From Porphyridium purpureum (Eukaryota), in the NCBI GenBank assembly GCA_008690995.1, contig VRMN01000010.1, positions 1 through 64,000 of the forward strand: a stretch of 64,000 bases of DNA, written 5' to 3'. A program made the position numbers and the translations under genes. Every line of letters starts with the position of its first letter. Position 1 is the first letter of the stretch. Below the pieces are notes generated by a model, which made no database searches, had not been told where the DNA came from, and saw only the letters and a program-made list of their open reading frames with translations. This document shows, in pieces, positions 1 to 43,509 of this stretch.

Positions 1-445
1 CAGGCGGTCCGACGGAGCGGCACTCGCGGCAGCGGCGCGTCGCAAGCAGGCCTCCTTCCAGGCTGCTGCGCGCACCGGCGACGCTGCTGGCGTGTCGTTC
101 CAGGCGGTCATTCTGGACACGTACGGCCGGCGCGAACAGTGCGGAGCCGCGTTTCTGGAGACTCTGGTGGCGGCGTACATGCGGCACCGTGGAGTCAGCA
201 AGATGCTGGCGAGCACGGCGCTCCACCGGTCGCTGTCGCTTGCGGTATACCGCTCGGTGGCGGCGGCGGTGCTTCTACGGCACCCGGGCCCGACTCTGCC
301 AGTTGCCTCGCAGCACTGGCTGGAGACGGGCAGGCGCCTCTTTGTAGGCGAGGTACTCTCGGAATCGGAGGCAGAGTCGCACTGACTTTGCTGATACATA
401 GGTAAAGCACTTAGGCCCTTTAGATTTATAATGTAAAACGATTTC
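1..445 (+). mobile_element. 3' end of a non-LTR retrotransposon with a restriction-like endonuclease (CRE/SLACS/MoTeR-like); ORF is open from the window edge to the stop at 385
   Basis: Frame 2 reads AAARRKQASF...FQAVILDTYG...AAFLETL...LSLAVYR, the typical RLE C-terminus pattern (K..KY...F.P...ET.G...L....S.A..R). A short AT-rich 3' UTR ends ...TTC directly at the 11-mer repeat. Confidence 0.65.
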
Positions 446-471
446 AGAGTAACCCTAGAGTAACCCTAGAG
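446..471 (+). repeat. 2.4 copies of AGAGTAACCCT (reverse strand TTACTCTAGGG), candidate telomeric repeat
   Basis: agagtaaccct agagtaaccct agag read directly; the same motif recurs at 1044, 8442 and 43446. Confidence 0.7.
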
Positions 472-1043: not shown

Positions 1044-1056
1044 AGAGTAACCCTAG
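1044..1056 (+). repeat. Single telomere-like unit AGAGTAACCCTAG
   Basis: Exact match to the 446-471 motif, at the junction between element and satellite. Confidence 0.65.
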
Positions 1057-1472
1057 TGTTCAGTGCACTTGCGTAGTGTCCAGTGCGCGTTCGTAGTGTT
1101 CAGTCGTCCTCAGTAATGTTCAGTCGTCTTCAGTAGTGTTCAGTTCGATTCAGTAGTGTTCAGTGCACTTGCGTAGTGTCCGGTGCGCGTGCGTAGTGTT
1201 CAGTCGTCTTCAGCAGTGTTCAGCTCGTTTCAGTAGTGTTCAGTCGTTTTTAGTAGTGTTCAGCTCGATTCAGTAGGGTCCAGTGTGCTTCAGTAGTGTT
1301 CAGCTCGATTCAGTAGGGTCCAGTGTGCTTGCGTAGTGTTCAGTTCGATTCAGTAGTGTCCAGTGCGCTTGCGTAGTGTTCAGTGCACTTCATGAGTGTT
1401 CAGTGCGATTCAGTAGTGGTCAGTGTGATTCAATAGTGTTCAGTTCACTTCAGTAGTGTTCAGCGCGCTTCA
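1057..1472. repeat. Subtelomeric 20-bp minisatellite (CAGTAGTGTTCAGTNNNNTT-like, ~20 copies, 10-bp sub-period)
   Basis: Repeating cagtagtgtt/cagt.. units are visible throughout. Confidence 0.9.
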
Positions 1473-1519
1473 GCGTGATCATCCGCGCTCAGTCTCACTC
1501 GCGCGTATGCACACCCGCG

Positions 1520-2010
1520 CTAACCCGCTGCGCAGCTGGTTGTGCAGACTGCGTTTACCAACACGGTATGATGAGCGTGCAAAGCGTACAGCTCCCCTAC
1601 GCATCCCTGCTCCGCGGCCTTGCGCCACCACTCAATTGTCGCGATCTTGTCGGTACGCAGTCTGCGTAACCCGTTAAAAAGGGAAGCGAGCAACTGCACT
1701 GTGACCACGCGCCTCACTATTCTGCGGCCTTGTAGAACCACTTGATCACCGTGTTCTTGTCTTCAGGCAGACCGCCTAACCCATGAGAATAAGAAGTGCC
1801 CAGTTGCACGGCGCCTGTGCGTCTCCGGATTCCGTGGCTAGAGTAGCAGTAGCGTGTCTCTGAACCATGGATCAGCGGCACCACTTGACCGCTGTGCAAT
1901 GACCTGTGCCTAGATCGCTCCACTTATTCTCGCATCAGCGGGCCAAGTTGTTCTGGCTGCCTGCGTCTCCCTGTTCCGCCGCATTGCACCACCACTTGAT
2001 CGCCGCGCGA
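1520..2010 (-). pseudogene. Degenerate Sel1-repeat gene relic
   Basis: Fragments LGTSYSHGLGGLPEDKNTVIKWFYKAAE and IEWWRKAAEQG match the Sel1 units at 12.8-14 kb; broken by stops and frameshifts. Confidence 0.75.
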
Positions 2011-2500
2011 TGGTCACTTGTCAGATCGCGTTCGCCGTTGTCTTACAACAGGGCCACAGTTTTGCACGCGACCGCGAGTACCTCTTCCGTGGCCTTGCGG
2101 TATCACCACCCTGTCATGCGCTTGTTTTGCGCCGACCACTCCACGCGTGCGTACCATTCTCACCTGGCCTCCACTGCAAGCCCGCATCTCCCGCCTGTGC
2201 CGCGTTCTGCACAGATCTCAAGCTTATGCACGGCATGCGCGCTGTGCTGATCGCCGCGCGAGTGTCACTTGTCAGATCGCGTTCGCCGTTGTCTTACAAC
2301 AGGGCCACAGTTTTGCACGCGACCGCGAGTACCTCTTCCGTGGTCTTGCGGTATCACCACCCTGTCATGCGCTTGTTTTTGCGCCGACCACTCCATGCGT
2401 GCGTACCATTCTCACCTGGCCTCCACTGCAAGCCCACATCTCCCGCTTGTGCCGCGTTCTGCACAGATCACGAGCTTACGCGCGACCTACGCGCTGTGCT
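1997..2500. repeat. Tandem duplication, 251-bp unit
   Basis: tgatcgccgcgcga..gtcacttgtcagatc starts at both 1997 and 2248; the two copies are near identical. Confidence 0.9.
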
Positions 2501-2634
2501 GACGCATGGTCTGATGATCACTCCTCCTCCAAGCAACACAACAAGACGCCTTGCAGATCATGACGCGGAGGGGCCTTCTACAAGATTGCATGCACCTTTC
2601 GTCCTTGGATCGCACGACCCGCCACGGGCACTTT

Positions 2635-2701
2635 GAGCTCAACGTTTGCCCCTAGAGCTCAACGTTTGCCCCTAGAGCTCAACGTGTGCCCCTAAAGCTC
2701 A
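2635..2701. repeat. 20-bp tandem repeat GAGCTCAACGTTTGCCCCTA x3.3
   Basis: Read directly; unit junctions form CCCTAGAG, shared with the 11-mer. Confidence 0.9.
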
Positions 2702-3169
2702 CTCGGACGAATAATCGGCGCGACAAAACTTCTCGAGCGACCGCTGTGGAGTGCACGAGCCCGTATACACCATACGCAGGCCGTTACCTCTTTGACGCCG
2801 CCCACCCAAAACCAGATTTGTATTTTGTACGGCCACAGCTGCGCATACGGTAAAGAAGATCTGCCGGCACGTTGTCCGACACCAATCGACGCTTGCGCAA
2901 TGTCCGCGCGCTAGATGTCTCACTCGATAGGCACCGAGCGATGCCAGTTTGTATTGAACGCGTCGTGGTGCTGACTTCAACACCTTTTCTCTGCGAGTCT
3001 TCGAATAGTACCTAAAATGCGACTGAAGCGCTGAACATCTGTAACCCCTGCTCTTTCATCCTATCCGGCTTTGAACTTGCCTACAGCGTGATCGCGCGTA
3101 AAGTGAAGGTCGGCAAGCTTTTCGTTCCAAGTTGGTTGAGCTCAAGTTGTGCGGAAGTGGCTGGAAAGG

Positions 3170-6100
3170 ATGCCGCACTTTTTGTGCAGAAAGGGCTGCG
3201 GCTCAGTCTTGACCAGTCAGAGCGCGCGCGACGTGCATGAGCGCTACTGTTTCTTACAGAGCGAGGACATCGATGGAATGTGCTGTCCAGAATGCATATT
3301 TGCTGTGAAGGTCACACCAGGAGAAGAAAAGAAAGCGCGGGCATACATTCGCAGGCATATGACTCGTATGCACCCCAGGCATTTGTCACGCTCCCCTTTC
3401 ATTGCTCCTTGCGCATCATTCGCGACGGCCAAAGGGAACACACTTCGACAAAACATCTGTAGCTCGGTCCGCTCCGCTCGCGCGATTGTCATTGGAACTA
3501 ACGCTGTGGCATCATCTTCCGCTGTCCGTGCAATCATGGACACGCCGTTGCAGCCGTACAATCCGGCGCGTACGCTGACTGGATCAGCATTGACGACGTT
3601 GGGATTTTACGACACATATGAAGACATGCTTGAAGCGTACTCACATGCCATTCGAGAACCAGCAGAGGAGAGTGTCATCTATGCGCGAGAGTGGTGTGAA
3701 TTTGCGAGGCGGGCAATCAGGCTTGCTCTCAAGACCACGCCACATCTGCTGAGAATTCCCGTGCCTGGCAAGCAGGGCAACCCATCGGAGCTTGACATGC
3801 ATGACCCAGAGGTATGGAGCGATGGATCAAAGTATAGAACTTTGGCGACCCTCAAAGACGAGACTTTGGAAAAGCGCATCCCGAACATCGCACGACTGTT
3901 TTCCTTTTACGCTTACTGGCTTTTGCAAATGAATCTCGAGGACGTCGTTGTGAAATACGAGCAGACCCACGTGCCAAGCAATACTCGTCCTGTGGTTGGC
4001 GCCCTTCAAAGCATTTTGAACTATGCACTTGAGCAACCTACAACATCCACCGGAAACACACGGCCAGCTGCACGCGAATTTTTGCGCTCGCACGCGCTCC
4101 AGCAAGTGAGTGACCGAAACGGAGAGCCATCAAGTATCCACGACGAAATGTCTGGATCGCAGTCCGGCACGTGTTTGACCAGTCGCAGTGCCTTAACGAT
4201 AAGTGAGTTGTCAGCCACGCAGCTCTGGGTTTTGAGAGCTGCGTGGGTTGTGAGGCTAATTGTGAAAGAGAAAGACCGGGAAATACAAACCTCAAACGAC
4301 ACGATTCTTTCCGACGTTCCCTGTGCGCAAGTACTGTACATGATGCACTCCGTCTTCAGAAGCGCGCAAGAGCCATCCACGTACGTGGCATGGAAAGCTA
4401 TGGGCAATGGTTCCTGGATGCACTTAAAGACGGAAGTGCTGGTGCAAGCAAAGGTCTTTGGTAATTTGTACAATGGCTCCAGAGCGGCCGCTCGAGCTTT
4501 GGTTGCCCGAGTTCTTGGAGCGCGCGATAACTTTTCGGTCCGGGTGTTGTCGCAGCATAATACAACGGCGCCAATGCTCGGTGAAATTATACTCGATGGC
4601 AGTGAACGACATGCAGCTCAGCCTGCGGAACTGCTCGCGAGCGCCAGACGCCAGAACATCGATTTCAACGCACTGAGCAATTTTGCATTACTTGCGTTCT
4701 CTGCCGCGTGTGCCCCGCCGCGAAAGTCAAGTATGGAAACTTTTGTTCTCGCTAGCCGAAGTGTTGGAAATTCACTTAGACCTGTTTTAAATACTCGTGT
4801 AGTGAGAGTTGTCGAGGTTGTTGAGAAGAAATTGGGTCGCGCGCTTGCAACTGAAACTGTTGAGCATCTTCCAACTGAGGAAGTCGCAGAAGTGCTGCTT
4901 ATCATGCATTGGATTGCGAGTGCATATATTGACGAGATACTTGGCCAGCAAAATCAGGGGCAAAATGTACCTGAGAGCATTGACTTTCGAAACTTTGGGG
5001 CCTGCGCCAGCAGAACGACTTGTGCAGCACTTAATCCGGAGGAGTGGATTGCACAAGTAGAATGTGCTGTTGGGCAGTTCTGCGCCGTGCCCATGACCTT
5101 ACGGGACTTGCGCAATCTTTACTTGCATTGCGTACGAGACAACGCTGACGCTTTCCGAGGAATTGCCGCCCCGCAAGGGATACAGCCCGTAGACACACCT
5201 GCGCAAAAGTACAAGATCCGCGGCGCAGGTCACTCGCTTGCGACAGACGCCGCATTCTACCTGGCTTCAGTAAAAGACGAAGACTGGTTTGCATTCACAG
5301 TGGAATGTCGCGACGCATGGCTTGCACTGATTGGCGCGGAAACTCACGCTTCGTCACGGATGGGCTCCGTGCATCCGAGAGAGCTTTCGCTCGGAGAATG
5401 GGCCTCACTGGCGGGTTTGACGCCAGACACATTGCTCCGTGATGTATATGGTAGCGCTTCCGTCGCCAGCCCGCAAGCAAGGAAGCAGCTTGAAATGCTG
5501 AACGAAATTCTGATGGACAAGAACGTTTGCGTACAATATCCTTGCGGAAGTGGTAAGTCAGCATCATACTTGTGCATGGAGAAAGTCGTTCGCTTGCAAG
5601 GTGCCTTTGTTCTGCTTTTGGTACCGCTTCGCGTTTCCATGTTTGCTGCATTGCAGGAGGCAAGAAGTAGAAGGATTGAAGCCGTTGACTTGTACTCATG
5701 TACCGAGCGTTCGCATGGCGGCCTCGTCGTCACCAGCATGGATGCACTTGCATCACAACGTGCAGCTCTTAGACGCATTGCAGAACGCATCGCACTCGTT
5801 GTCGTGGACGAGAGTCACGTCGTACTAGAACATAGCTCGTTCCGCGAGTCAATGTCCGTCAAGCTGAGCGCGTCGCTTTTGACGAAATCCTGCTTTGTAT
5901 TTCTCAGTGCGACGATAAGTGAAGATGCTGCTGCGTTCGTTGCCAAAGAGTTTGGTGTGACCATCGACTCCTTTTTGCGTGCACGACCACTTCGAGAATC
6001 ATTGAACATCAGCGTGACAGAGTTTGGCACGAGCGCAATCTGCACTCAACAGATTACGGCCGCCATCCAGGAAAATGCGCTTGCTCGTCGTGGGCGTGCA

Positions 6101-7444
6101 CTGATAATGTGTGCTACTCATGCAGAAGCCGACACATGGTTTGACGAAATGAGAAAGTCTTACTCGGATGCATGTTACAAACTGACAGCACGTGAAGCTC
6201 TCGACGCTGAGGCATTGCAGCAAGCGCGGGTAATCGTTGGCACATCCGCTGTGAGCTCATCTCTGAATTGCAAATCTGTTTTGTACTGCGCCGTGATGCG
6301 CGGAGCACATTCGCTCAGCCAAGTGGTCCAAGCATGGGGCAGAGTTGGTCGCGACGGTGAGCACGCCCGCTGCGAATTTTTCTTCGACAGAAATTTCCAG
6401 AACGCATTGGACCAGCGTGACAGCCCGAGCATTCGCCAGGTTCCAGGTTTTGAGCGCGACCCTTGGCATAGTAAAGCCGGTCTACGGCGCTTCGTTGAGA
6501 GTGCACTTGACTTATCCTCTCACGAAGTTCACAGCGTGCTCAACCTTTTAACCACTCGCTCCATGGTGACTCAGACAGCCAACCCAGTGACGGTGCCGCA
6601 GCCAAGCTTGCACGAGATGGTGCGGCCAAGTACGCACGTGGTTGCAGAACCAAGTTCGGGCATGATAGCGCAACCGACGTCGTACATGCTGGCACAGCCA
6701 AGCTCGCACACGGTCGCAGCGCCAAGCTCGCACACGGTCGCAGCGCCAAGCTCGCACACGGTCGCAGCGCCAAGCTCGCACACGGTTGCAGCGCCAAGCT
6801 CGCACACGGTTGCAGCGCCAAGCTCGCACGTAATGGCGCAGCCCACTTCGCACGTGCCGGAGCAACCAACTTTGCACTTGCTCGCGCAGGCCAGCTCGCA
6901 GCAGCACGAGGCGACGCCACTGGCTAGCTCTGCACCAGCGCGCGCGCTGGGCGAGCAATTACAGACGATCAGACAAGCAAGAGCGACATGGAATACTGCA
7001 ATGTACAAATGCATCTGGTGCAGTGGTGTCACATGTCTTGGCACATGCCAGAATCCGAACAGGTTTCCCAACACCTGCCCATACTGTGGGTTTCGATACT
7101 CACGGTCATCTGCAGCGGCCCACGTCTCCTGCAGCAAACGGTCGGCCGGAAATATCATCAGACCAAGACTCGCGCCAAACTTGGGCATGTGTTTCCGTTG
7201 TCTGGCCCCCACCGAAGTGTGCGAAAAGAAATGCGAAAAGGCTCCGAGCGCCTTAAAGCACAGAATGGAAGCCGTGTATCGGAAAGCTTTCTCCTTGATG
7301 GGCACTCCCGGATCTGGTGGAGCAGAAGAGTTGACCATCTTCTACACACACAAGCTGTGCGAACTCGTGAGCTGGGAAGGCTTCGAGTTGTACAAGCGAG
7401 CGACAAAGCTCATGGCGAATGAATGGAGCCTTCAGAAAGTATAA
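3170..7444 (+). CDS. Telomere-linked-helicase-like protein: N-terminal zinc fingers, tyrosine-recombinase-like region, RecQ-like SF2 helicase, Cys-rich C-terminus
   Basis: CxxxC..HxxxC and CPEC..HxxxxH fingers; helicase motifs PCGSGKS, LLVPL, VVDESH, LSAT, QAWGRVGRDG; YR-like PPR(4721)...LRDLR(5111)...AGH(5231)x8Y(5258); C-terminal CxxC pairs. First ATG at 3170. Confidence 0.85.
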   Translation: MPHFLCRKGCGSVLTSQSARDVHERYCFLQSEDIDGMCCPECIFAVKVTPGEEKKARAYIRRHMTRMHPRHLSRSPFIAPCASFATAKGNTLRQNICSSVRSARAIVIGTNAVASSSAVRAIMDTPLQPYNPARTLTGSALTTLGFYDTYEDMLEAYSHAIREPAEESVIYAREWCEFARRAIRLALKTTPHLLRIPVPGKQGNPSELDMHDPEVWSDGSKYRTLATLKDETLEKRIPNIARLFSFYAYWLLQMNLEDVVVKYEQTHVPSNTRPVVGALQSILNYALEQPTTSTGNTRPAAREFLRSHALQQVSDRNGEPSSIHDEMSGSQSGTCLTSRSALTISELSATQLWVLRAAWVVRLIVKEKDREIQTSNDTILSDVPCAQVLYMMHSVFRSAQEPSTYVAWKAMGNGSWMHLKTEVLVQAKVFGNLYNGSRAAARALVARVLGARDNFSVRVLSQHNTTAPMLGEIILDGSERHAAQPAELLASARRQNIDFNALSNFALLAFSAACAPPRKSSMETFVLASRSVGNSLRPVLNTRVVRVVEVVEKKLGRALATETVEHLPTEEVAEVLLIMHWIASAYIDEILGQQNQGQNVPESIDFRNFGACASRTTCAALNPEEWIAQVECAVGQFCAVPMTLRDLRNLYLHCVRDNADAFRGIAAPQGIQPVDTPAQKYKIRGAGHSLATDAAFYLASVKDEDWFAFTVECRDAWLALIGAETHASSRMGSVHPRELSLGEWASLAGLTPDTLLRDVYGSASVASPQARKQLEMLNEILMDKNVCVQYPCGSGKSASYLCMEKVVRLQGAFVLLLVPLRVSMFAALQEARSRRIEAVDLYSCTERSHGGLVVTSMDALASQRAALRRIAERIALVVVDESHVVLEHSSFRESMSVKLSASLLTKSCFVFLSATISEDAAAFVAKEFGVTIDSFLRARPLRESLNISVTEFGTSAICTQQITAAIQENALARRGRALIMCATHAEADTWFDEMRKSYSDACYKLTAREALDAEALQQARVIVGTSAVSSSLNCKSVLYCAVMRGAHSLSQVVQAWGRVGRDGEHARCEFFFDRNFQNALDQRDSPSIRQVPGFERDPWHSKAGLRRFVESALDLSSHEVHSVLNLLTTRSMVTQTANPVTVPQPSLHEMVRPSTHVVAEPSSGMIAQPTSYMLAQPSSHTVAAPSSHTVAAPSSHTVAAPSSHTVAAPSSHTVAAPSSHVMAQPTSHVPEQPTLHLLAQASSQQHEATPLASSAPARALGEQLQTIRQARATWNTAMYKCIWCSGVTCLGTCQNPNRFPNTCPYCGFRYSRSSAAAHVSCSKRSAGNIIRPRLAPNLGMCFRCLAPTEVCEKKCEKAPSALKHRMEAVYRKAFSLMGTPGSGGAEELTIFYTHKLCELVSWEGFELYKRATKLMANEWSLQKV
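6697..6829 (+). repeat. 24-bp coding minisatellite encoding (PSSHTVAA)n
   Basis: gccaagctcgcacacggt(c/t)gcagc x5.5, with degenerate units on either side. Confidence 0.95.
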
Positions 7445-7924
7445 AACCGACACTAGCTCCACTCTGCATGTGTGATTGCCTCATGAGTAAAAACACTGTG
7501 GTACGCTGCTGCCCATTGCCCACAACCCGCCGCCCCGTCCTCAAACTTCTCTAGACCACTCCTCGACCGCTTCGACCCCGACGACCACCCTCGCTCACAC
7601 TCCACGGCTAAAGGCTTGCCCACGAACACTGTAGGGATGACATTGAAATGAACATCGACCCGTCAAATGCAATCGTTTTAGTACGATGATTACTCTTACT
7701 AAAATAATTCTCCCACATAGAAACCAGAGGCTTCTGTACCAAAACGCTCATTTTGATCAGGAAAAGTTGTAAACATGGGGGTTCCGCATATGCGCTTGCC
7801 ATGGCGAGTTTTCGTGGCAAAGTGGCCTCGCTGTATGATTTGACTTTGGAAAGCTAGATTTCACTGGTAAAATCCATGCGCTCATGTAGTTGCCGCCTGT
7901 TTAACTAAAGACACGCTTCCTTTT

Positions 7925-8273
7925 GGTGACCACCCCCTCAGATTGATGCCATTTAAGTACAGAATGTGTATAAGTAACTGGAGCATTTTTATACACTTGC
8001 ATATGGTGACTACCCCCTCAGGAAACAATCATTTAGATACAACACGTCTCTATGAAAATGAGATACTTTCATACGCTTTCACACGGTGACTACCCCCTTA
8101 CGTTTGGTGACTACCCCCTCAAACAAGACGATTTTACCACGAAATTTCCTTCTGAAAAAAGCTAAATTTGTACTGAGTTTTGCATAAGCATTTCAATGCA
8201 ATTTTTGTAGCAGATGGTGACCACCCCGTAGCATTTGAAAACCACTAATATAGCAGATAGTGACTACCCCTCA
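7925..8273 (+). repeat. Six copies of GGTGAC(T/C)ACCCCCTCA-like motif, probably transposon subterminal binding sites
   Basis: Copies at 7925, 8005, 8085, 8106, 8216 and 8259; the first three are exactly 80 bp apart. Confidence 0.8.
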
Positions 8274-8520
8274 AAACCATTAAATCGAAGGACTGGCTCG
8301 AAGTAGGAGGCGTTTGAGAAAGGCGAAAATGTCTGCGGGTAGCTCTTCTCTGGCTCCACATTTGCCTGTGAAAACACTGGGCAATGCACTTTCCATTAAT
8401 GAGCTACACTAGGAAAAGGAAACCCTAACGCGAATTGCTATTAGAGTAACCCTAGAATGGAACTGTCCAACAAAATTAGATTATTTTGTAGCAAGCAACG
8501 GAACGTACTGTACCTCTGAG

Positions 8521-9781
8521 TCAAACCGATTTGAATTGGCGGTTTTCAGTGCGCCACCACTTAAGCACATGCATGAATGCTTCCCAAACGCGTCCGTGGT
8601 TGATACGCCGCCATATGAACTCCTCCAAATAAAGGTTCACACGATTTCCATCATAAGCAGAATCAGGCATGGTTGCTTTCACGGCCCGCCAAGTTCCTTC
8701 CACTGTATTCGTGTGCACTCCCGTAACCGGATCCTTGAAGTGCATTTCATGGTTTACGGTATAGTGTCTGAGTGTTATCCGTTCGACCCCAGTCACCTAG
8801 AACGGTTCAGTTAATCCGAAACCGGTAAGCCGTTAAACCGGTAGGCCGTTTAACCGTTTCTAGAAGCTTCTAGAGGTTCCAGAACCTTCTAGACGCGCGC
8901 AGAAATGCCAATGGTTTGCATTGTCATTTCTCTTGGCGCCTTGCTGTCCCTGACGGAAGTAAGGGTATAAAAAGGCGACGCGCCTGCCCGGACTAGCCGG
9001 TCAGGTCTTGCTCGGAGAGAGAAGCAGGCAAAGACGCAGAGAGTAATAAAGGCACAGCATTGGTAACACTGAGTGTCGGATGGTACTTCAAAATGAAGTA
9101 CGACTTCCAGCAATCCGTATGTATAATGGAGCCCGGGTGCACACGCTGCTGTATGATGGGAATTAAAGTGCGCGTTGTCCGGTTGGGCACCACTGTCATG
9201 AAGAGACGGCGTTCTTCAGTTCGTTCCACTCCGGCAAGCACCCATACCCCATCAACGCGATGTCCTCGATGGTACTTGCGCTTCCGAAACTTGCTTTCGT
9301 CGATTTCGACTGTAACATCCTGGCCACAAGTGGGAGCCTCATGCATAGCATCGTACTCGACATTGCACTGGCGTACATGCATGAGAATGCTGCGCACTGA
9401 GCTCCTCGCGAGTCTAGTCAACTCTGAAATCTGCGTGGCACAAAGACAGTGGAGCCAAAGAAAAACACAAAACAAGACATCGTGAAAAGCAAGATTTTTA
9501 TGGGCAGAGAAGAACGAATTTGTAGATCGAAGTGATACAAACTGCTGGCAAGCCTTTCTCTTGCACCTGAATGCACACTTTACCTGAATCTCGCGCATCT
9601 CCGCCGAGCAACCCACCGCAGGACAACGCATTTTTGCCGCAAGCACACCGATACTCATAAGGAACTGTATGCATGCATGCTCATCGGAGAGCAGTGCATA
9701 GACTTCCTTGAGCGTAGGAATACCGGCGTCCTCCATGCTCCTCCTCCCTTGCCCCTTCGTCAGCATGCATTCATGCTCCAT
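8521..9781 (-). mobile_element. Merlin (IS1595/ISXO2-like) DDE transposase interrupted by a solo LTR
   Basis: Zinc ribbon CPAVGC...CKRKAC; VEIDESKF.KRKYHRG, WVLAGVER, PGSIIHTDCWKSY, H.TVNH...F.DP.TGVHTNTVEGTW, YLEEFIWR. Removing the LTR and one TSD copy restores ...YHPTLRHYTVNH in frame. Confidence 0.92.
8773..9068 (+). mobile_element. Solo LTR (296 bp) with 5-bp TSD CTGAG
   Basis: TGTTATCC...GGTAACA termini; CTGAG at 8768-8772 and 9069-9073; internal TATAAAA (~8967) and AATAAA (~9045); homologous copy at 42855. Confidence 0.9.
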
Positions 9782-9845
9782 AACGTCAGGTTCGGTTTAT
9801 CGGTTTATTATTTCACTCTACCTCCTTGAGTACAGTTCATGGAGA

Positions 9846-11228
9846 ATGTACAGGTCGCACCCTCGCGCTCCGTCAGCCGCTGCACAGAATAAGCTAGACG
9901 CAGAGTTTCACGGGCGTTGGAAGTTTGTTATGGACTGTATCGGGTTCAAGGCTTTAGTCAGTGAGCCTCTGGGAAGCATGACAATGATGGATCTACGCAG
10001 AAAGGTTCGGGAGAACGAGCTGGAGCCCGTGACCAGGTCATTGATGGTCAAATTTCGGCAGCTGACGGGTTTAACGACGAGATGGTGCATAGATTTTGAC
10101 GCGAGCCAGCCAGGAAATCTGGTGTTTGCCGACTTTGCAATCACGGCTTTGCCGTGCAAACGGTTGAGCGCTGGTAAAACAGTGCTTTGGGCGAGGTCAA
10201 TAATGGACAGCCGCTTTCTACGATGGATTAGGGATACGCCAAGAGGTTACGCTAATCGCCTTGTCACGGAGGATCGGTTTGCGAATATGCCCAATGTCAC
10301 GGGTTTTCGCGTTCGGTGCGACGGTGATGTATGCAGTATGGTTCACTCGACGTCGGCGGGAGGAGCTGAAGACCTTGTTGCTCCTCATTCACCACGCGAG
10401 CTCATGTATGTTCAAGCTTATCATACGAGTCGTCACCGTGCTTCTACCAACGCGTTAAAGCCGCTAAAGTGGCCTGGTGAACAGCGCACAGTTACGTGGC
10501 CGACTGCCGTCCAACTGTGTAAGGCAGCCGATTGGCTGGCAGATGCAATTCGTGAGGAGACCAAGAATGACCGTGCCGGACAAGGTGTTCGAATTGAATT
10601 TAGGGTGAGCCTGAGACAGCACAGCTTTGCGGGTGTAGACGGTGAGTCCCTGTGGTTTGAACATGACACGGTCGAGCGCGTTGAGGAAAATGTCTGGGCC
10701 ATCGTTCTCCGATGGATGACGTCAGTGCTCTGCGGACAATATCTTCTGTGCTATCAGACGGACGAGCTCAACGATTATTTGCGAATCACGGCGGAGTGCT
10801 TGAGACTGACGGGTAGACGCGCGCTTGGACAGCTGGCCCGTATGAGTGACTTTGATGCAGATGGTCACTATTGCGAATCCGTCAGTTTTGCACGTCGTCC
10901 TCTGCATGCGTTGCTGATCTCGACATATATTTTGCAGACGGGACTTTTGCGCCGCTTGCCAACCGACAAGACGTGGTTTCGTCAGATTGTCATAGACATC
11001 TGTGGTTTTGACACATTCGTGGGGCAGCGTAAGGCAGGTAAAGTTGTATGGCTGAGGGTTACTGTAGGGTTTAGGGTTGGTGGTGGATGTACACTCCTGG
11101 CCAAGATGGTTGTCCCAGGTGCAATTTCAAGGTCTGAACTCCAGTTTTATAGTAAAAACGAGCGTTTTCATATAAAATCAACTAGAATACCTTTTTTAAC
11201 ATATTTTTGTTCCTCAGCTCAGAGGTAA
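9846..11228 (+). CDS. Uncharacterised ~400-aa ORF divergent from the Merlin transposase; 3' end runs into a telomere-like tract and the Tc1
   Basis: Long ORF with motifs WCIDFD, YVQAYH and GVRIEFRV; the last ~60 codons come from inserted sequence. Confidence 0.55.
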   Translation: MYRSHPRAPSAAAQNKLDAEFHGRWKFVMDCIGFKALVSEPLGSMTMMDLRRKVRENELEPVTRSLMVKFRQLTGLTTRWCIDFDASQPGNLVFADFAITALPCKRLSAGKTVLWARSIMDSRFLRWIRDTPRGYANRLVTEDRFANMPNVTGFRVRCDGDVCSMVHSTSAGGAEDLVAPHSPRELMYVQAYHTSRHRASTNALKPLKWPGEQRTVTWPTAVQLCKAADWLADAIREETKNDRAGQGVRIEFRVSLRQHSFAGVDGESLWFEHDTVERVEENVWAIVLRWMTSVLCGQYLLCYQTDELNDYLRITAECLRLTGRRALGQLARMSDFDADGHYCESVSFARRPLHALLISTYILQTGLLRRLPTDKTWFRQIVIDICGFDTFVGQRKAGKVVWLRVTVGFRVGGGCTLLAKMVVPGAISRSELQFYSKNERFHIKSTRIPFLTYFCSSAQR

Positions 11229-12640
11229 GCGCGCGCTTTTGCGGGACCCCATGAGGCCATGAAGGGGTTCAAGACATGTGAAAGAAGACTAACGCATCTA
11301 CTGCACTCGGGCATACGATCGCGACCAAGTCCAGCAACCGCAAGCATCGGAAACATGGCACCACGGCTCTCCGACTTCGAGAAAGGGCAGATTGACGCTC
11401 TGCACCGGCTCTGTCTGACGCCGCGGGCCATTGTAGCACGTCTTCATCCGCGACCAGACAAGACCCGACCATCGTACAAGACTGTGGAGCGATTTCTGAA
11501 GAATCGAGGCAAGAAAAGGGTTTTCAAGAAACCCGGACCGGCGCGGACAATATCGCCGAAATTGGAGCGTCGCCTGATTCGGCACGTCATTACGGATAGG
11601 TTGACGTCTGCACAGGCAGTGACGGAGCTGCAGCTTGCGTGCAGTGCGAGAACTGTTCGTCGTATCCTGCAGAGATCACCAGAGGTTCGTATTATCGCAC
11701 AGAGGCGAAAGTTCTTCATTTCGGAGAAGAACCGAGTCAAGCGGCTTGCATTTGCTCGAGAATACGTTCACAAGCCGCTATCGTTTTGGAAGAATGTCAT
11801 CTTCTCGGATGAAAAGATCTTTCGGCTGGACGGGCCACACGGGTACAACAAGACTTATCAGCGAACGCGAGGCCCTGAGCCCGCGCCAACTATGCGTCGC
11901 CATAGTGGCGGAGGATCCGCAATGTTTTGGGGTGCCATGTCGTGGCACGGACTGAGTACGTTGCATCGTGTTCAAGGCTCGCTGAATGCCGAGCGATATC
12001 GGCAGGTTATGCTGAACGTCATGATGCCCTGGGCACTGGAACTGCCTTGGCGCCTTGATCAGCCGGATTGTCCATTCATATTTCAGCAAGATAATGCGCC
12101 CGGACATGCAGCGCTGAGCACGCGCGAGCTGTTTGACACGGTCGGAATCGCACTACTTGATTGGCCAGCGCGGTCGCCGGACTTGAATCCAGTTGAGAAT
12201 CTGTGGGCGATCGTTTCTCGCCGTGTGCATTGGCAGGGACGCCAGTTTATGCGCCTCGATGACATGCTTCCAGTTATCTATGACTGCTGGCGAACGGAAG
12301 CGCCAGAGTATGTTGAGGCACTTTTCGAGAGCATGCCCCGTCGTCTGCAAGCTTGCATCGACGCCGGTGGCCGTCAAACCAAGTACTAGTTTCGTTAAGA
12401 CAGTTAAATCTCTTCTCATAAGCGTGTTTGTCCTCATCAACCTGTTTCATTGTATTTCTTTTCTGCGGCCCTTCTCACAGGTGTCTCACTGTTCTACGAT
12501 GCCTTTCTAAGCCCTTACCGCTTTCCCGTGCCGCGGATTCGTTTCGTGCCATCAAAACAGACGACAACCTAGTCGAAAAGCTGAGTTATTCACAAAAAAC
12601 TTCATTTAATCCTGTGGGACAACTAACTTGGCCAGGACTG
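11092..12640 (+). mobile_element. Complete Tc1-like DNA transposon
   Basis: 26-bp TIRs CACTCCTGGCCAAGATGGTTGTCCCA / reverse-complemented CAGTCCTGGCCAAGTTAGTTGTCCCA (23/26); TA on both flanks. Confidence 0.93.
11355..12389 (+). CDS. Tc1 DD34E transposase
   Basis: HTH N-terminus, VIFSDEK, FQQDNAPGH, WPARSPDLNPVENLW with 34 residues between D and E; no stops. Confidence 0.95.
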   Translation: MAPRLSDFEKGQIDALHRLCLTPRAIVARLHPRPDKTRPSYKTVERFLKNRGKKRVFKKPGPARTISPKLERRLIRHVITDRLTSAQAVTELQLACSARTVRRILQRSPEVRIIAQRRKFFISEKNRVKRLAFAREYVHKPLSFWKNVIFSDEKIFRLDGPHGYNKTYQRTRGPEPAPTMRRHSGGGSAMFWGAMSWHGLSTLHRVQGSLNAERYRQVMLNVMMPWALELPWRLDQPDCPFIFQQDNAPGHAALSTRELFDTVGIALLDWPARSPDLNPVENLWAIVSRRVHWQGRQFMRLDDMLPVIYDCWRTEAPEYVEALFESMPRRLQACIDAGGRQTKY

Positions 12641-12717: not shown

Positions 12718-15700
12718 CTATAAACCTGGTCTTATCCAATCATCCAGCCCATTTACGTTTGCCTGTTCCGCGGCCTTGCGGTACCACTCGGCCGCGGCGC
12801 GCTTGTCCTGCCGCAGCCCGCCCATCCCTTTCGCGTAACAAATGCCCAATTTTAACTGCGCCGCTGCGTCTCCCTGTTCCGCGGCCTTGCGGTACCACTC
12901 GACCGCGGCGCGATCGTCCTGCGGCAGCCCGCCCTCCCCGTTCTCGTAACAAGTGCCCAAATTATTCTGCGCCGCTGCTTCTCCCTGCTCCGCGGCCTTG
13001 CGGTACCACTCGACGGCCGCGCGCTTGTCCTGCGGCAGCCCGCCCTCCCCGTTCTTGTAACAAGTGCCCAAATTAAACTGCGCCGCTGCTTCTCCCTGTT
13101 CCGCGGCCTTGCGGTACCACTCGACGGCCGCGCGCTTGTCCTGCTGCAGCCCGCCCTCCCCGTTCTTGTAACAAGTGCCCAAATTATTCTGCGCCGCTGC
13201 GTCTCCCTGCTCCGCGGCCTTGCGGTACCACTCGACGGCCGCGCGCTTGTCCTGCGGCAGCCCGCCCTCCCCATTCTTGTAACAAGTGCCCAAATTTTTC
13301 TGCGCGCGTGCGTCTCCATGCTCCGCGGCCTTGCGCCACCACTCGACCGCGGCGCGCTTGTCCTGCGGCAGCCCGCCCAATCCGAACTCGTAACAACAGC
13401 CCAAATTAAACTGCGCCGTTGCGTCTCCCTGCTCCGCGGCCTTGCGCCACCAATTGACCGCGGCGCGGTCGTCCTGCGGCAGCCCGCACTCCCCTTTCGC
13501 GTAACAACGGCCCAAATTAAACTGCGCGTCTGCAAATCCCTGATCCGCAGCCTTGCGGTACCACTCGACCGCGGCGCGCCTGTCCTGCGGCAGCCCGCCC
13601 TCCCCGATTTCGTAATGAACGCCCAAACCAAACTGCGCGCCTGCAAATCCCTGATCCGCAGCCTTGCGCCACCACTCGACCGCGGCGCGCTTGTCCTGCG
13701 GCAGCCCGCCCTCCCCGTCGTGGTAACAACGGCCCAAATTATACTGCCCCTTTGCGAGTCCCTGTTCCGCGGCCTTGCGGTACCACTCGACCGCGATGCG
13801 CTTCTCCTGCGGCAGCCCGCCCAAATCGTACTCGTAACAATAACCCAAACTGTTCTGCGCCGCTGCGTCTCCCTGCTCCGCCGCCTTAAGCAACCACTCG
13901 ACCGCCGTGCGCGTGTCCTGCGGCAGCCCGCCCAAACCCTCGTGATAAAAATAGCCCAGCCGGCCCTGCGAGTGAGCGTCGCCCAATTGCGCCGCCTTGC
14001 GGTACCACTCCAGCGCTTCCGCAAAGTCCTTGTTGTCCTCAGCAGTCCGACCACGTCGCTGCCAGTCCGCCGTGTCGCGCCGCGCCTGCTCCGCGGCGGC
14101 GGCGGCGCGATGCGCAGCTCTCGCGCCTCCTTCTCGCGCCGCGCTTGCTCCACCGCAGCAGCGCGTTGCGCGGCTAGCTCTCGCGCCTCCTTCTCACGCC
14201 GCGCTTGCTCTGCCGCGGCAGCGGCGGCCTCTTCTTCACGCTTCCGCGCAGCAGCAGCTTCCGCTTCGCGCCGCGCGGCAAGGTCGCGCGCTTCCTTCTC
14301 GAGGCGCTCGTGTTCCTCTGCGGCTGCCCGACGAACGGCGGCTGCGTGCTCTAGAGCCTGACGATCGCGCTCCGCTTTCTTCTTGTCCTCTTCAAGCCGC
14401 CTCTTCTCAGCCTCATTCTGTTGCCGTCTTAGCGCTGCCTGCTCTTCGGTCTCCACCGCCTTGAACCATTCAGACCCCGCCGGGCTGCCGAGCTTTGCGG
14501 CCTTGGCATACCACTCCTTCGCCAGGCTCCAGTTCTGCGGCACGCCCCGCCCAGAGTGGTGGCAGCGGCCATACTCAATCATGGCGTCCGTGCGTCCTTT
14601 CTCAGCGGCTGCGCGCACCCAACCGGCGCCATGTTCCAAGTGCTGGCTCCTGCCGTGCGAGCCGTCGAGCAAAATCTTGCCCAGCCGGAATTGGCCTTCC
14701 GCGGCACCTGATTCCGCTGCTAGCTTAAAATACTCATACGCGTGCGTCATGTTCCCCGCTTTCTCCCATTCCTCTGCGTAGCGGAGCTTGTCATCGGCAC
14801 TCAGCGTTTGCGCTTGTGCGGGCTGGGATACACTTGGCCCCGCCGAACTGCCTCCCGTGCTCGACACTGCGGCTCCTGACCGACCAGATGCCACCGTAAC
14901 GTGCGAAACGCGTGCACCCAACGCACCAACCTCTACCGTGCTCGCGTCAGAAGAGGACGCAATGGCAGAGACACAGGCCTGCTCCTTGCAAAATGCCACC
15001 GAAATTTTCGCCATGCTCGGGCGCTCTCGAGCATTCATTCTCAAGCATGCTTTAGCCGTGTCTACTAACCACGTCGGCCAGGCGTTTGCGTATGTACTTT
15101 TCTTCAGCCTGTGCCACGGCACGCCCTTCGTCGGATCCCTGAGTGCCATATCGATTTCCACCTGCGTCGCTCTGCCAAACATGGGCTCGCCCAATACCAT
15201 CTCATACAACATGACTCCAAACGACCACACGTCACAAGTCCGGTCATACTTGTCACCACGCATGACCTCTGGCGCCATGTACGCATCTGTGCCAGCCTTT
15301 GATTTTGCATATGACCCGGTGTTCTTCACGGTTGCCAACCCAAAGTCGCTGATCTTGGCCGTGTATTCCTCCGTGAGCAGAATATTCTGAGGCTTGATGT
15401 CTCTGTGGATCAGTTTCGCAGAATGCAGGTACTTGAGACCATTCACGATGCCAACAAAAATGTCCAACAGCTGCGCGCGGGGCAGCACACCCTGCATACT
15501 ACTTCGAAACATGTGTTTGTCCAGCGAGCCGTTCGCTGCGTATTCTAAAAGAATGAATGGCTTCCTGTGACGCTGCGTACCGCTCTCGAGCGGATAGAAC
15601 CCACCACGCGTCTGGATGATGTTCGTATGAGAGAGCCGCCACATCGCCCCGAGCTCGTTCTTCAACTGAATCAGCGCATCCATTGTTTCCGTCGGTACTT

Positions 15701-16541
15701 CCTTGATGGCCACCGTTGACCCAAAGCATGTGCCTTTGTAAACAATTCCAAAACCTCCAGAGCCCAGCATAACGTACTCGTCCAATTCGTCACGCTCTTT
15801 TCGGACGTGCGCGACGTCGACATACCATGGCTCCGTTTTCGTGGGTCCGGTCGACAAGCCGCTGGAATTAGAAGCGTCTGTGTACGGCTTGTGGATATCC
15901 ACGCGGAGACTGTGCATCTGAAGAACAGCGCTCTTTTCTGATCCGGAACCAAGTTGCTCTTCGAGCTTGGGTCGATCCTTGACCTTATCCTTCTCCAGAG
16001 CCAAAAGTATTTGCTGGTGCCTATGTTCTTGCACATGCGTGCCTCGTTTGTGAGAGTCCGCAAGCTTGAACAAAACGATGCGCGATAACTGAGCTTCGAG
16101 CTTGTCCAGCGTATCGCTGCAGGTCTGAAATTCGGCCTGGTAGTTCTTTGCCCTCATCACGCGACGAAACTTCTCATTCCAGCGTTCTGCGGACGAGAAC
16201 TTTTCCACAAGCGAGCAGGTGGACTCGAGCGCGGACGTCAGATCCGCCAGGCACTCGAGCAGGCGACCGTGCTGCGCCTGGTCTGTGCCCGACCTCATCT
16301 TTTCGCCTTGGCCACCAAAATAATCAAGCAGCACGCTCTCAATGCCGGCGGCCTGCTTTGCCAGCTGCTTACATGTGTCGTGCATGGCTCGCGCGGCCTG
16401 CGCCAGCTCCACGATGACCTTGATGACCGCGTACGCCGCCGCAACGTACGGCAAAACCTCGCCGACATCGTTGGCGATCGTGCCTCCGACTTTGAGGGCT
16501 TCCTCAAACGCCGCGCGCTCCGCTGCGCGACCTGCCGCCAT
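12718..16541 (-). CDS. MLKL-like helical N-terminus + TKL-type protein kinase + Sel1 repeats; one frameshift near 14116
   Basis: Kinase motifs GSGGFG, VAIK, HRDIKPQN, DFG, APE; Sel1 units and an E/A/R coiled coil follow. At gagctgcgcatcgc (minus strand) the natural sequence continues in the frame of ORF 12718..13986 (..AAEQARRDTADW...EWYRKAAQLGDA..). Confidence 0.85.
12763..13983 (-). repeat. Eleven tandem 111-bp Sel1 repeat units
   Basis: 37-aa unit GDAAAQxNLGxCYxxGEGGLPQDKRAAVEWYRKAAEQ. Confidence 0.95.
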
Positions 16542-21304: not shown

Positions 21305-22213
21305 CTAGTCAGCTGGGTATTTCAAAGAAAACTGCGCAGCTGTATGTCCCTGTTCCGCGGCCTTTCGGTACCAGTCGACCGCCGCACGCTTATCCTGCGG
21401 CAGACCACCCTCACCGTTGCAGTAATAATAGCCCAAATGATACTGCGCCATTGCTTCTCCCTGTTCTGCGGCCTTGCGGAACCAGTGAACCGCCACGCAC
21501 TTGTCCTGCGGCAGACCGCCCCACCCGTTTTCGTAATGAACTCCCAATTTACACTGCGCCGCTGCGCAACCCTGTTCCGCGGCCTTGCGGTACCAGTCGA
21601 CTGCCGCATCCCTATCCTGTGGCAGCCCGCCCTCACCGTTGCTGTAATGAGCGCCTAAATTATGCTGCGCGCTTGCGTCTCCCTGTTTCGCGGCCTTGTG
21701 ATACCACTCGACCGCCGCGTGCATGTCCTGCGGCAGCCCACCATCCCCGTTGTCGTAATAAACGCCCAAATTACTCTGCGCCCTTTCGTTTCCGTTTTCC
21801 GCGCCCTTGCGGTACCACTCGGCCGCCGCGCGCTTGTCCTGCGGCAGCCCGCCCTCCCCGTTACTATAAAAGACGCCCAAGTTAAACTGCGCTCCTGCGT
21901 CTCCCTGTTCCGCGGCCTTACGGTACCACTCGGCTGCCACGCGCTTGTCCTGCGGCAGCCCGCCTTCCCCGATGCAGTAACAATAGCCCAAATTGCATTG
22001 CGCCGCTGCTTCTCCTTGTTCCGCGGCCATACGGTACCACTCGACCGCCGCGCGCTTGTCCTGCGGCAGCCCGCCCCACCCATTCTGGTACCAAACGCCC
22101 AAATTATACTGCGCCTGTGCGTTTCCCCGTTCTGCGGCCATGCACCACCACTCGACCGACGCGCGCTTTTTCTTGGCCGAACCGCCCTCCGCGTGGCTGT
22201 AACTAACGCCCAT
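21305..22213 (-). pseudogene. Sel1-repeat array (~8 units), 5'-truncated paralog
   Basis: Same 37-aa unit; upstream reads DAAA-stop where Q is expected, and no kinase lies upstream. Confidence 0.75.
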
Positions 22214-42253: not shown

Positions 42254-42854
42254 CGCGCATCTGTCTCTCTGTGAAGCCACCCTTCCACGCTCACTCGCTG
42301 CGCTCACATCCGCACCCGCCTCGAGCGCTCACGATATAATTAGGGTTTGTAACCCTAGCGCTGTCAAGCTGCGCGCGTGAGCGGTGCCGGTATCACCGTG
42401 TCGAGCTGGAACTCGGCGGGCGATGGGACAGCAGTGTGTGCAAAAACCAATGGCACGCGCCAGCTGGCGGCGTGATGGAAAGTTCCTGTTCAGCCTTTTT
42501 GCGTCGGGGTAACAGATGCTACGAAAAGACGAAACATGCGTCTTTGAGATTGGATATTGTGGCTGTTTAACGCTTCTCATTCTAACTAGATAACTATGAT
42601 AAAACTTCGTAACCTCCTTCCCTGCATTTACATGCTCGCTTCGCGGAACCGACGAGTGCATGCCGCGATTTCCATGCCTTTCTTGCTCTCGCGAGTCGGC
42701 TTGGCGCAAACGAGCACCGGCAAGGGGGACTCGTGCGACGCACTCGAATGCTCGCGGCGTTTCCCGGGATGCCGCGTGAATGCGTCACATTCCTGCCACA
42801 AATGACGCATTTCGTGGCGCGCAGTGCTTTGTCTATTACGTCACTTTGCGGATG

Positions 42855-43147
42855 AGTTATCAATGCTAAGCCTGTACTCTTCCTCCTTCTTACCTCTTCT
42901 GTCTCAAAGCAAGACCTAACCGGCTAGCCCGGGCAGGCGCGTCGCCTTTTTCTACCCTTACTTCCATGAGGGACAGCTAGGCGCCAAGAGAAATGATATT
43001 GCAAATCATTGTCGATTCTGCGCACGTGTAGAAGTTTGTGGAGACTCTAGAAGCTTGTAGAAACGGTTCAACGGTCTACCGGTTGAACGGCTCACCGGTT
43101 TCGAATTGACCGAACCGTTCTACTTGAATGGGGTCGAAAGGATAACA
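42855..43147 (-). mobile_element. Diverged solo LTR of the same family as 8773-9068
   Basis: Reverse-complement similarity along the full length; flanks GGATG/AGATG (4/5 TSD match). Confidence 0.85.
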
Positions 43148-43509
43148 AGATGCATCTTGGAATCCTTGCCAAAGACAAAACTACTCACAGCAGTGACACA
43201 AGCAGTTGGGAAAAACTATACAAGAATGCATCTCAGAAGCGTGGGCTGCCGGGCGGATAGTTCCAGTTAGGCGAACGGCGCCCGTCTTGGGTGGCAGTAA
43301 AGGTTGGAGCTTTGGCGAGTGGGAGATTGTTCGGGCACCGTGAGGACCTACCGCGTGCATTAAAGCTCGCGGTTCTATGACAGCACTCTCAATTCCTCCG
43401 AGGCGTGAATGAGCGAGTCGTAAAGCACAATACGTAATGAGGGAGCCCTAGAGTAACCCATTGTAGGGCTAAAAGTCCAGACTCGTGGTGATGTTAAAGG
43501 TTATCAAGA

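What the first reader, a model, noticed from the sequence alone, without database searches (positions are those of the whole stretch)
3170..7444. Intact tyrosine-recombinase-like / RecQ helicase fusion in the subtelomere
Seen: an uninterrupted 1424-aa ORF among decayed neighbours. Ahead of a complete SF2 helicase core it has R (PPRKSS, 4721), a second R 130 aa later (LRDLR, 5111) and GH-x8-Y (5231-5260). Known: tyrosine recombinases use R...HxxR...H-x8-Y (e.g. XerD LGH-x8-Y), and fungi carry telomere-linked RecQ helicases (TLH). Inference: this is a TLH-like gene outside fungi that may keep an active recombinase site. It could be a self-mobilising YR-helicase element or a driver of subtelomere recombination. 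The HxxR histidine is not conserved, so activity is uncertain.
Basis: partly seen in the sequence, partly recalled or inferred. Interest (0 to 1): 0.85.

Follow-up and report, generated by a model that had tools for sequence, protein, structure and literature searches.

The report
Red algal telomere-type recombinase-helicase gene
This intact, multi-copy gene of a single-celled red alga joins a DNA-unwinding helicase to a domain predicted to be a DNA-cutting-and-rejoining tyrosine recombinase, and it is likely a red-algal form of the fungal telomere-linked helicases that would use these two activities to spread among chromosome ends.

Summary
The 1424-aa ORF and the named residues are real. The organism is Porphyridium purpureum. 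The gene has 6 near-identical copies on 5 contigs, and a second family (27% identical, 4 copies) exists in the same genome. Profile evidence supports it: the two algal proteins match a family of mostly helicase-fused, fungal TLH-type domains (HHalign 96%), and that family matches XerD-type recombinases (77%, E 2e-5). R518, K553, R648, H688 and Y697 are in register and kept in both algal proteins. An AlphaFold model (pLDDT 68) has XerA as best match, but only at E 0.049. Two N-terminal zinc fingers complete the TLH layout. The gene lies between copies of an 11-nt telomere-like repeat, beside retrotransposon-like remnants; a chromosome-end position is inferred, not shown. No empty site, circle or activity was shown, the box I glutamate is lost, and one RNA run had no reads on the recombinase part. 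I found no paper linking TLH to recombinases or to red algae. This scan noted the same fusion before in fungi, diatoms and moss.

The parts
3170..7444 (+). Intact ORF, 1424 aa: zinc fingers, recombinase-type domain, RecQ-like helicase, repeat linker, Cys-rich tail. The public gene model of this copy starts at Met64 and omits most of the zinc-finger region.
   Evidence: the 27% identical paralog P0027 aligns from residue 4
3185..3250 (+). Zinc finger 1, C6-x3-C10-x12-H23-x3-C27 (C2HC)
   Evidence: all four ligands kept in P0027
3284..3373 (+). Zinc finger 2, C39-x2-C42-x20-H63-x4-H68 (C2H2, long spacer)
   Evidence: all four ligands kept in P0027
4640..5344 (+). Predicted tyrosine-recombinase catalytic domain (residues about 491-725), at the position of the 'TLH domain'. 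R518 (4721), K553 (4826), R648 (5111), H688 (5231), Y697 (5258). Box I Glu replaced by S521; HxxR His replaced by R645.
5480..6409 (+). RecQ-like SF2 helicase core (residues about 771-1080), strongly diverged
6697..6829 (+). 24-bp coding tandem repeat, 5.5 copies; copy number varies among paralogs by 8 or 32 residues
7010..7201 (+). C-terminal Cys cluster, 8 Cys kept in P0027; likely zinc-binding
1044..1056 (+). Left copy of the 11-nt telomere-like repeat (AGAGTAACCCT); candidate left boundary
8442..8456 (+). Right copy of the same repeat; candidate right boundary. Contigs of 3 of 3 DNA runs begin at 8453; one ends at 8444.
446..471 (+). 2.4 tandem copies of the 11-nt repeat between two retroelement-like remnants
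1054..2701 (.). Upstream repeat blocks: 20-bp satellite (1054-1473), decayed Sel1-like DNA, 251-bp duplication (1997-2502), 20-bp repeat (2635-2701); analogous in position to helicase-associated repeats
   Evidence: PMC1635262 passages
7911..8270 (.). Downstream repeats with a GGTGACTACCCC core, 6 copies, partly at 80-bp spacing

Best explanation
This is an intact, multi-copy gene for a zinc-finger, recombinase-type and RecQ-like helicase fusion that is likely a red-algal member of the telomere-linked helicase (TLH) family, and its predicted tyrosine recombinase would nick and rejoin DNA at telomere-like repeats while the helicase would unwind the junction, likely copying the unit to other chromosome ends. 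Shown: ORF, domain order, 6 + 4 copies in two families, five catalytic-type residues kept at 27% identity, flanking 11-nt repeats. Predicted: recombinase fold. Inferred: chromosome-end position, that the 11-nt repeat is the telomere unit and the target, phosphotyrosine chemistry, and self-propagation. My odds per step: TLH-family homology 0.85, recombinase fold 0.9, still catalytic 0.6, spreads its own unit 0.45.
For: Copies: 6 cluster members on 5 contigs, 4 to 10 differences in the colinear ones; second family P0027 with 4 identical accessions on 4 contigs, 27% identical, E 6e-85. Homology: an HMM from 65 non-Porphyridium rows ranks P0001 first of 2363 sequences (14.0 bits; best of 2000 shuffles 6.6; next hits XerD-like). 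P0001+P0027 against the family: HHalign 96%, E 4e-9, 193 columns; family against XerD-like alignment: 77%, E 2e-5, catalytic positions in register. Of 14 columns at least 90% conserved in the family, only 6 are kept in both algal proteins, and 5 of them are R518, K553, R648, H688, Y697. Atlas features of residues 470-730: 6 of 7 shown rows are Phage_integrase, NDC10_II, ResT-TelK or Integrase_2. Model pLDDT 68; 11 of the first 13 and 25 of 46 listed PDB rows are recombinase, protelomerase or topoisomerase IB structures. Family layout: 20 of 24 scanned hits carry DEAD, 7 of 24 OrsD. Repeat: 4 matches against 0.01 expected.
Against: No Pfam, PHROG, NCBIfam or PDB sequence hit for the domain. No Foldseek match at E 0.001 or better; best XerA E 0.049, TM 0.35, rmsd 15; the model rests on the family alignment, so it is partly circular. 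Atlas scores 0.85-0.88 with about 90 of 256 features are leads only. Family rows were picked with a profile that contained P0001. Family against Cre-like and TelN-like alignments was not significant (0.4%, 0.2%). Box I Glu (61 of 63) and five other near-invariant family residues are lost. DNA right of 8456 has depth similar to the gene (X1 122-156 against 77-191), so the repeated block does not stop at the right repeat. No empty site or circle joint among the 12 joints listed. RNA run X21 has zero depth over 2920-5838. If the telomere lies left, the gene points away from it, opposite to Magnaporthe TLH1. The telomere repeat of this alga is not established.
Confidence: 0.45

Rival explanations
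1. Host telomere-maintenance gene, amplified passively. The gene is silent until telomeres shorten, then helps recombination-based elongation; copies arise by ordinary subtelomere exchange, and the recombinase domain acts as a nicking or topoisomerase-like helper, not for its own spread.
For: Right flank shares the multi-copy state; no reads on the 5' half in one RNA run; S. pombe tlh genes are induced in telomere crisis and aid recovery (10.1101/2024.02.27.582403); catalytic residues kept equally under this reading.
Against: Two families at 27% identity, each with near-identical copies, and a long-branch helicase look more like selfish elements than a housekeeping gene (inference); Magnaporthe ends lacking TLH are maintained normally (PMC1635262).
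Confidence: 0.3
2. Crypton- or Starship-like excision and integration element: the recombinase excises a circle between the two direct repeats (1044 and 8443) and integrates it at any copy of the repeat, chromosome end or not.
For: 13-bp direct repeats 7399 bp apart flank the gene, the geometry a tyrosine recombinase uses (established knowledge); nimavirus recombinases target telomere repeats (PMC10871703).
Against: No joint linking 8456 back to 1044 or skipping the unit among 12 listed; in run X1 the left part (1327-2042, depth 10) is far rarer than the gene, and the 3' half (178-191) exceeds the 5' half (77), which fits truncation better than a fixed unit.
Confidence: 0.13
3. The domain has the recombinase fold but is catalytically dead and only binds DNA, as in Ndc10.
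For: Box I Glu and HxxR His are absent; 6 of 14 near-invariant family columns differ; NDC10_II is among the Atlas neighbours.
Against: The residues that survive in both algal proteins are the five chemical ones including the tyrosine.
Confidence: 0.09
4. The R/R/H/Y residues are chance and the gene is an ordinary diverged RecQ paralog.
For: Loose motif in 31% of shuffles; pairwise alignment to the fungal protein P0011 not significant; single-sequence fold failed.
Against: converge on one fold; TIGR00614 score 36 against cut-off 220; multi-copy.
Confidence: 0.03

Closest known systems
Telomere-linked RecQ helicases (TLH) and TLH-containing regions: Magnaporthe TLH1, Fusarium FoTLH, S. pombe tlh1/2, Monosiga; Colletotrichum DHX_G198-type repeats
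   Same: Two N-terminal zinc fingers, conserved domain of about 250 aa before a RecQ-like core, about 1400-1600 aa, near-identical copies, short repeats on both sides, tandem repeat blocks upstream, neighbouring retroelement remnants, little transcription.
   Different: Red alga; very diverged (helicase branch 3.3 substitutions per site); finger 1 is C2HC and finger 2 has a 20-residue spacer; no OrsD hit; two families in one genome; probably opposite orientation to Magnaporthe; the papers I read give the TLH domain no function.
XerC/D, XerA, Cre and phage integrases
   Same: R, K, R, H, Y in the same order, GH-x8-Y; top fold matches.
   Different: No HxxR His, no box I Glu, fused to a helicase, under 16% identity to the listed recombinase structures, no palindromic site found.
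Protelomerases TelN/TelK/TelA, ResT and topoisomerase IB
   Same: Same fold family, basic residue in place of HxxR His (TelN KDSR), act at DNA ends; ResT also unwinds DNA (PMC5388405, listing and abstract start only).
   Different: No significant profile match (0.2%); no evidence of hairpin telomeres; a separate SF2 motor here.
Telomere-targeting tyrosine recombinases of endogenous nimaviruses
   Same: Eukaryotic-host recombinase with a C2H2 finger associated with insertion in telomere repeats (PMC10871703 passages).
   Different: Viral genomes of hundreds of kb, no helicase fusion reported in the passages read; homology not tested.
Crypton, Starship captains (DUF3435), and helicase-bearing DDE elements AcademH and KolobokH (all recalled, not from a call)
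   Same: Eukaryotic DNA elements using a tyrosine recombinase, or carrying a RecQ-like helicase.
   Different: None is, to my recall, a single recombinase-RecQ fusion; no DUF3435 hit; no terminal inverted repeats found for this unit.

Membership tests
TLH | RecQ-like helicase core | tested here: met
   Pfam DEAD and Helicase_C, TIGR00614 E 3e-9 (below family cut-off), RECQ5 best PDB hit
TLH | Conserved TLH domain directly upstream of the helicase | tested here: met
   HHalign 96% to a family with OrsD + domain + helicase layout. That this family is TLH rests on layout and on PMC5576322 (helicase + DUF3505 in subtelomeric repeats); OrsD = DUF3505 is recalled. No named TLH protein was in hand.
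TLH | Two N-terminal C2H2 fingers of the published patterns | tested here: inconclusive
   Strict patterns not matched; relaxed versions match at 6-27 and 39-68, ligands kept in P0027; fungal P0011 also fails the strict patterns
TLH | Multi-copy, near-identical paralogs | tested here: met
   6 members on 5 contigs
TLH | Position next to telomeres, flanked by telomere repeats | tested here: inconclusive
   Flanking 11-nt C-rich repeat, but the telomere unit of this alga is unknown and no genome is held
TLH | Helicase groups with known TLHs in a tree | tested here: inconclusive
   24-row tree with one bacterial RecQ: the two algal proteins form a long isolated branch, backbone unresolved
Tyrosine recombinases | Catalytic-domain fold | tested here: inconclusive
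Tyrosine recombinases | R, K, R, H/W, Y catalytic residues in register | tested here: met
   R518, K553, R648, H688, Y697; family 63/64, 64/64, 58/60, 58/58, 57/58 (rows include P0027)
Tyrosine recombinases | HxxR histidine and box I acidic residue | tested here: not met
   R645 and S521. It is therefore not filed as a canonical Xer/Int-type enzyme; His is absent family-wide, Glu only in the algal proteins.
Tyrosine recombinases | Residues clustered in one active site; phosphotyrosine chemistry | not testable with these tools
   Model coordinates are not returned; needs an assay
Tyrosine-recombinase DNA transposons (Crypton, Starship) | Defined ends with filled and empty sites or circular intermediates | tested here: inconclusive
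   None among 12 joints in one lay of 3 contig sets and 1 RNA run; contigs drop rare variants

The most novel reading that the evidence does not exclude
TLH genes are a eukaryote-wide class of selfish chromosome-end DNA elements driven by a recombinase-helicase fusion that cuts at the host telomere repeat and copies itself between ends. Porphyridium carries two ancient, still-active families, and the flanking 11-nt repeat is both its undescribed telomere unit and the target site.
Probability: 0.35. Interest if true: 0.9.

Novelty: new variant of a known kind. Interest (0 to 1): 0.72.

Why it matters
TLH genes have been known for two decades with no function for their signature domain, and were reported only in fungi and a choanoflagellate. 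A recombinase active site gives a testable reason why they sit and multiply at chromosome ends. This case adds a red alga, intact copies, and an unusual natural experiment: two paralog families at 27% identity that shed most family-conserved residues but kept the five catalytic ones, which argues for selection on chemistry. It also offers a candidate telomere repeat for an alga in which it was not found experimentally.

Full report
Observation. The ORF at 3170-7444 is open for 1424 codons. The helicase core is RecQ-like but diverged: Pfam DEAD and Helicase_C, RECQ5 as best solved relative, TIGR00614 at 36 bits against a cut-off of 220.

Organism and copies. The protein cluster is named as Porphyridium purpureum. 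It has 6 members on 5 contigs, one being this copy. Four colinear members differ from it at 4 to 10 places, including repeat-number changes; two of those start at Met522; a fifth has an unrelated N-terminus up to about residue 330. A profile search found a second family in the same species, P0027, 1401 aa, 4 identical accessions on 4 contigs, 27% identical over 1175 columns. It aligns from residue 4, which supports the start at 3170 and keeps all 8 zinc-finger ligands, the helicase motifs and 8 C-terminal cysteines. Some accession numbers of the two families are neighbours, which suggests shared contigs (inference).

The middle domain. Direct library searches gave nothing. The helicase region retrieved a fungal protein of similar layout, P0011 (E 2.4). 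Pairwise support was weak. A two-row profile of the pre-helicase domain gave 67 hits among 1.84 billion proteins. I scanned 24 of the 65 new hits, chosen as the longer ones: 20 carry DEAD, 7 carry OrsD, 4 have no family. An HMM rebuilt from P0011 and these hits, with no Porphyridium row (checked), ranks P0001 first among 2363 sequences at 14.0 bits, above all 2000 shuffles (best 6.6), with XerD-like integrases next. P0027 scores 9.0 (best of 1000 shuffles 4.8). The two algal proteins together match the family at 96% (E 4e-9), and the family matches a 72-row XerD-like alignment at 77% (E 2e-5, 166 columns) with R, K, xxxR and GH-x8-Y in register; Cre-like and TelN-like alignments did not match. 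The hits were selected with a profile containing P0001, which may inflate these scores a little.

Independent lines agree but are each modest. Atlas features for residues 470-730, with helicase clusters left out, gave integrase, Ndc10 and protelomerase families in 6 of 7 shown rows at 0.85-0.88. AlphaFold with 65 rows reached pLDDT 68, pTM 0.66. Foldseek found nothing at E 0.001; the best PDB match is XerA (E 0.049, probability 0.91, TM 0.35), and 25 of 46 listed rows are recombinases, protelomerases or topoisomerase IB by title. Integrases lead the viral library too. The model leans on the family alignment, and residue distances could not be measured.

Is the site alive? Of 14 columns at least 90% conserved in the family, P0001 keeps 8, and only 6 are kept in both algal proteins: P516 and R518, K553, R648, H688, Y697. 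That pattern suggests selection on catalysis. Against it, the box I glutamate is serine in both. The missing HxxR histidine is a family trait, not decay.

Surroundings. An 11-nt C-rich repeat occurs at 446, 457, 1044 and 8443 (4 matches, 0.01 expected). The two left sites end two related remnants, 1-458 and 471-1056 (alignment score 235, best of 200 shuffles 205). Their translations resemble the restriction-like endonuclease end of non-LTR retrotransposons; that label is recalled and Pfam gave no hit. Fusarium FoTeR elements have this arrangement: truncated copies, telomere repeats at the 3' end, 5' end towards the terminus, next to TLH regions (PMC12857005 passages). This points to a chromosome end left of the window. 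GC3 is 0.56 in the gene and 0.65-0.75 in six conserved genes beyond 37 kb. The telomere unit of this alga was not found experimentally (PMC3622300 passages), and the first 20 of 23 papers holding the 11-mer were unrelated by title. The position is thus inferred.

Reads (one lay of 4 runs). Contigs of all three DNA runs start at 8453, at the right repeat. In X1 depth is 10 at 1327-2042, 77 at 2656-5521, 178-191 at 5492-8444 and 122-156 further right; X3 shows a similar step, X4 is flat. This fits many 5'-truncated copies and a repeated block that continues past the right repeat; the tool warns that depth is not copy number. No listed joint skips or circularises the unit. The RNA run has zero depth in the 7 bins from 2920 to 5838 and at most 8 near the 3' end. 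Junction sequences of other copies remain open.

Mechanism. Most likely the fingers and the upstream helical region bind a repeat junction, Y697 forms a 3'-phosphotyrosine nick, strand transfer joins the unit to another end, and the fused helicase drives unwinding and copying. All these steps are inferred from enzyme families. The main rival is a host crisis gene amplified passively.

What is known. TLH features come from bioRxiv 10.1101/2024.02.27.582403 (parts 1-3 of 4 read), PMC1635262 (passages) and PMC5576322 (passages). None of what I read assigns a function to the TLH domain. Searches pairing TLH, RecQ or DUF3505 with recombinase terms gave 0, 1, 9, 2 and 7 papers; I checked two by passages and the rest by listing, and none made the link. 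Porphyridium with telomere and helicase gave 0. Subscription journals are not covered. Earlier notes of this scan report the same fusion in fungi, diatoms and moss; they are unchecked, and I tested the claim separately here.

Verdict. Real feature, TLH-type gene with a probable tyrosine-recombinase active site in a red alga. New variant of a known kind; interest 0.72.

Noticed in passing
window 1-458 and 471-1056: Two related truncated remnants resembling the 3' end of restriction-like-endonuclease non-LTR retrotransposons, each ending in the 11-nt repeat; very high contig depth in X3 and X4 but low in X1. Candidate telomere-targeting retroelement of a red alga, like MoTeR/FoTeR.
   Followed up: partly
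window 446-469, 1044-1056, 8442-8456, 43446-43459, 11055-11071 (-), 42340-42358: The repeat (other strand TTACTCTAGGG) is a candidate for the undescribed Porphyridium telomere unit; shorter AACCCTAG forms lie upstream of genes at 42349 and 54849, like plant telo-boxes.
   Followed up: partly
window 8776-9068, second copy 42856-43147 (-): High-copy transcribed 293-bp element with an 8-bp target duplication (8768-8775, 9069-9076); the empty site is seen in all 4 runs.
   Followed up: yes
window about 8459-9840 (-): ISXO2/Merlin-like transposase (Pfam E 6e-11) with short inverted ends, interrupted by the 293-bp element.
   Followed up: partly
window 9735-11228 (+): 497-aa ORF with no Pfam hit and no exact database entry, on an apparently multi-copy block; its start overlaps the transposon end.
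   Followed up: no
window 11259-12389 (+) and 46249-47088 (-): Tc1/mariner-type transposases; the first is intact and transcribed in X21.
   Followed up: no
window 12852-16541 (-), 21305-22213 (-), 1571-2106: MLKL-like N-terminus + kinase + 111-bp Sel1 repeat gene, with Sel1 arrays and decayed copies nearby; looks like a fast-evolving defence-type family.
   Followed up: no
protein P0027: Second Porphyridium recombinase-helicase family, annotated as hypothetical, 4 identical copies; absent from this window apart from its match to this gene.
   Followed up: partly
window 43510-44193 (+): 227-aa ORF without Pfam hit just after a copy of the repeat; possibly a gag-like remnant.
   Followed up: no
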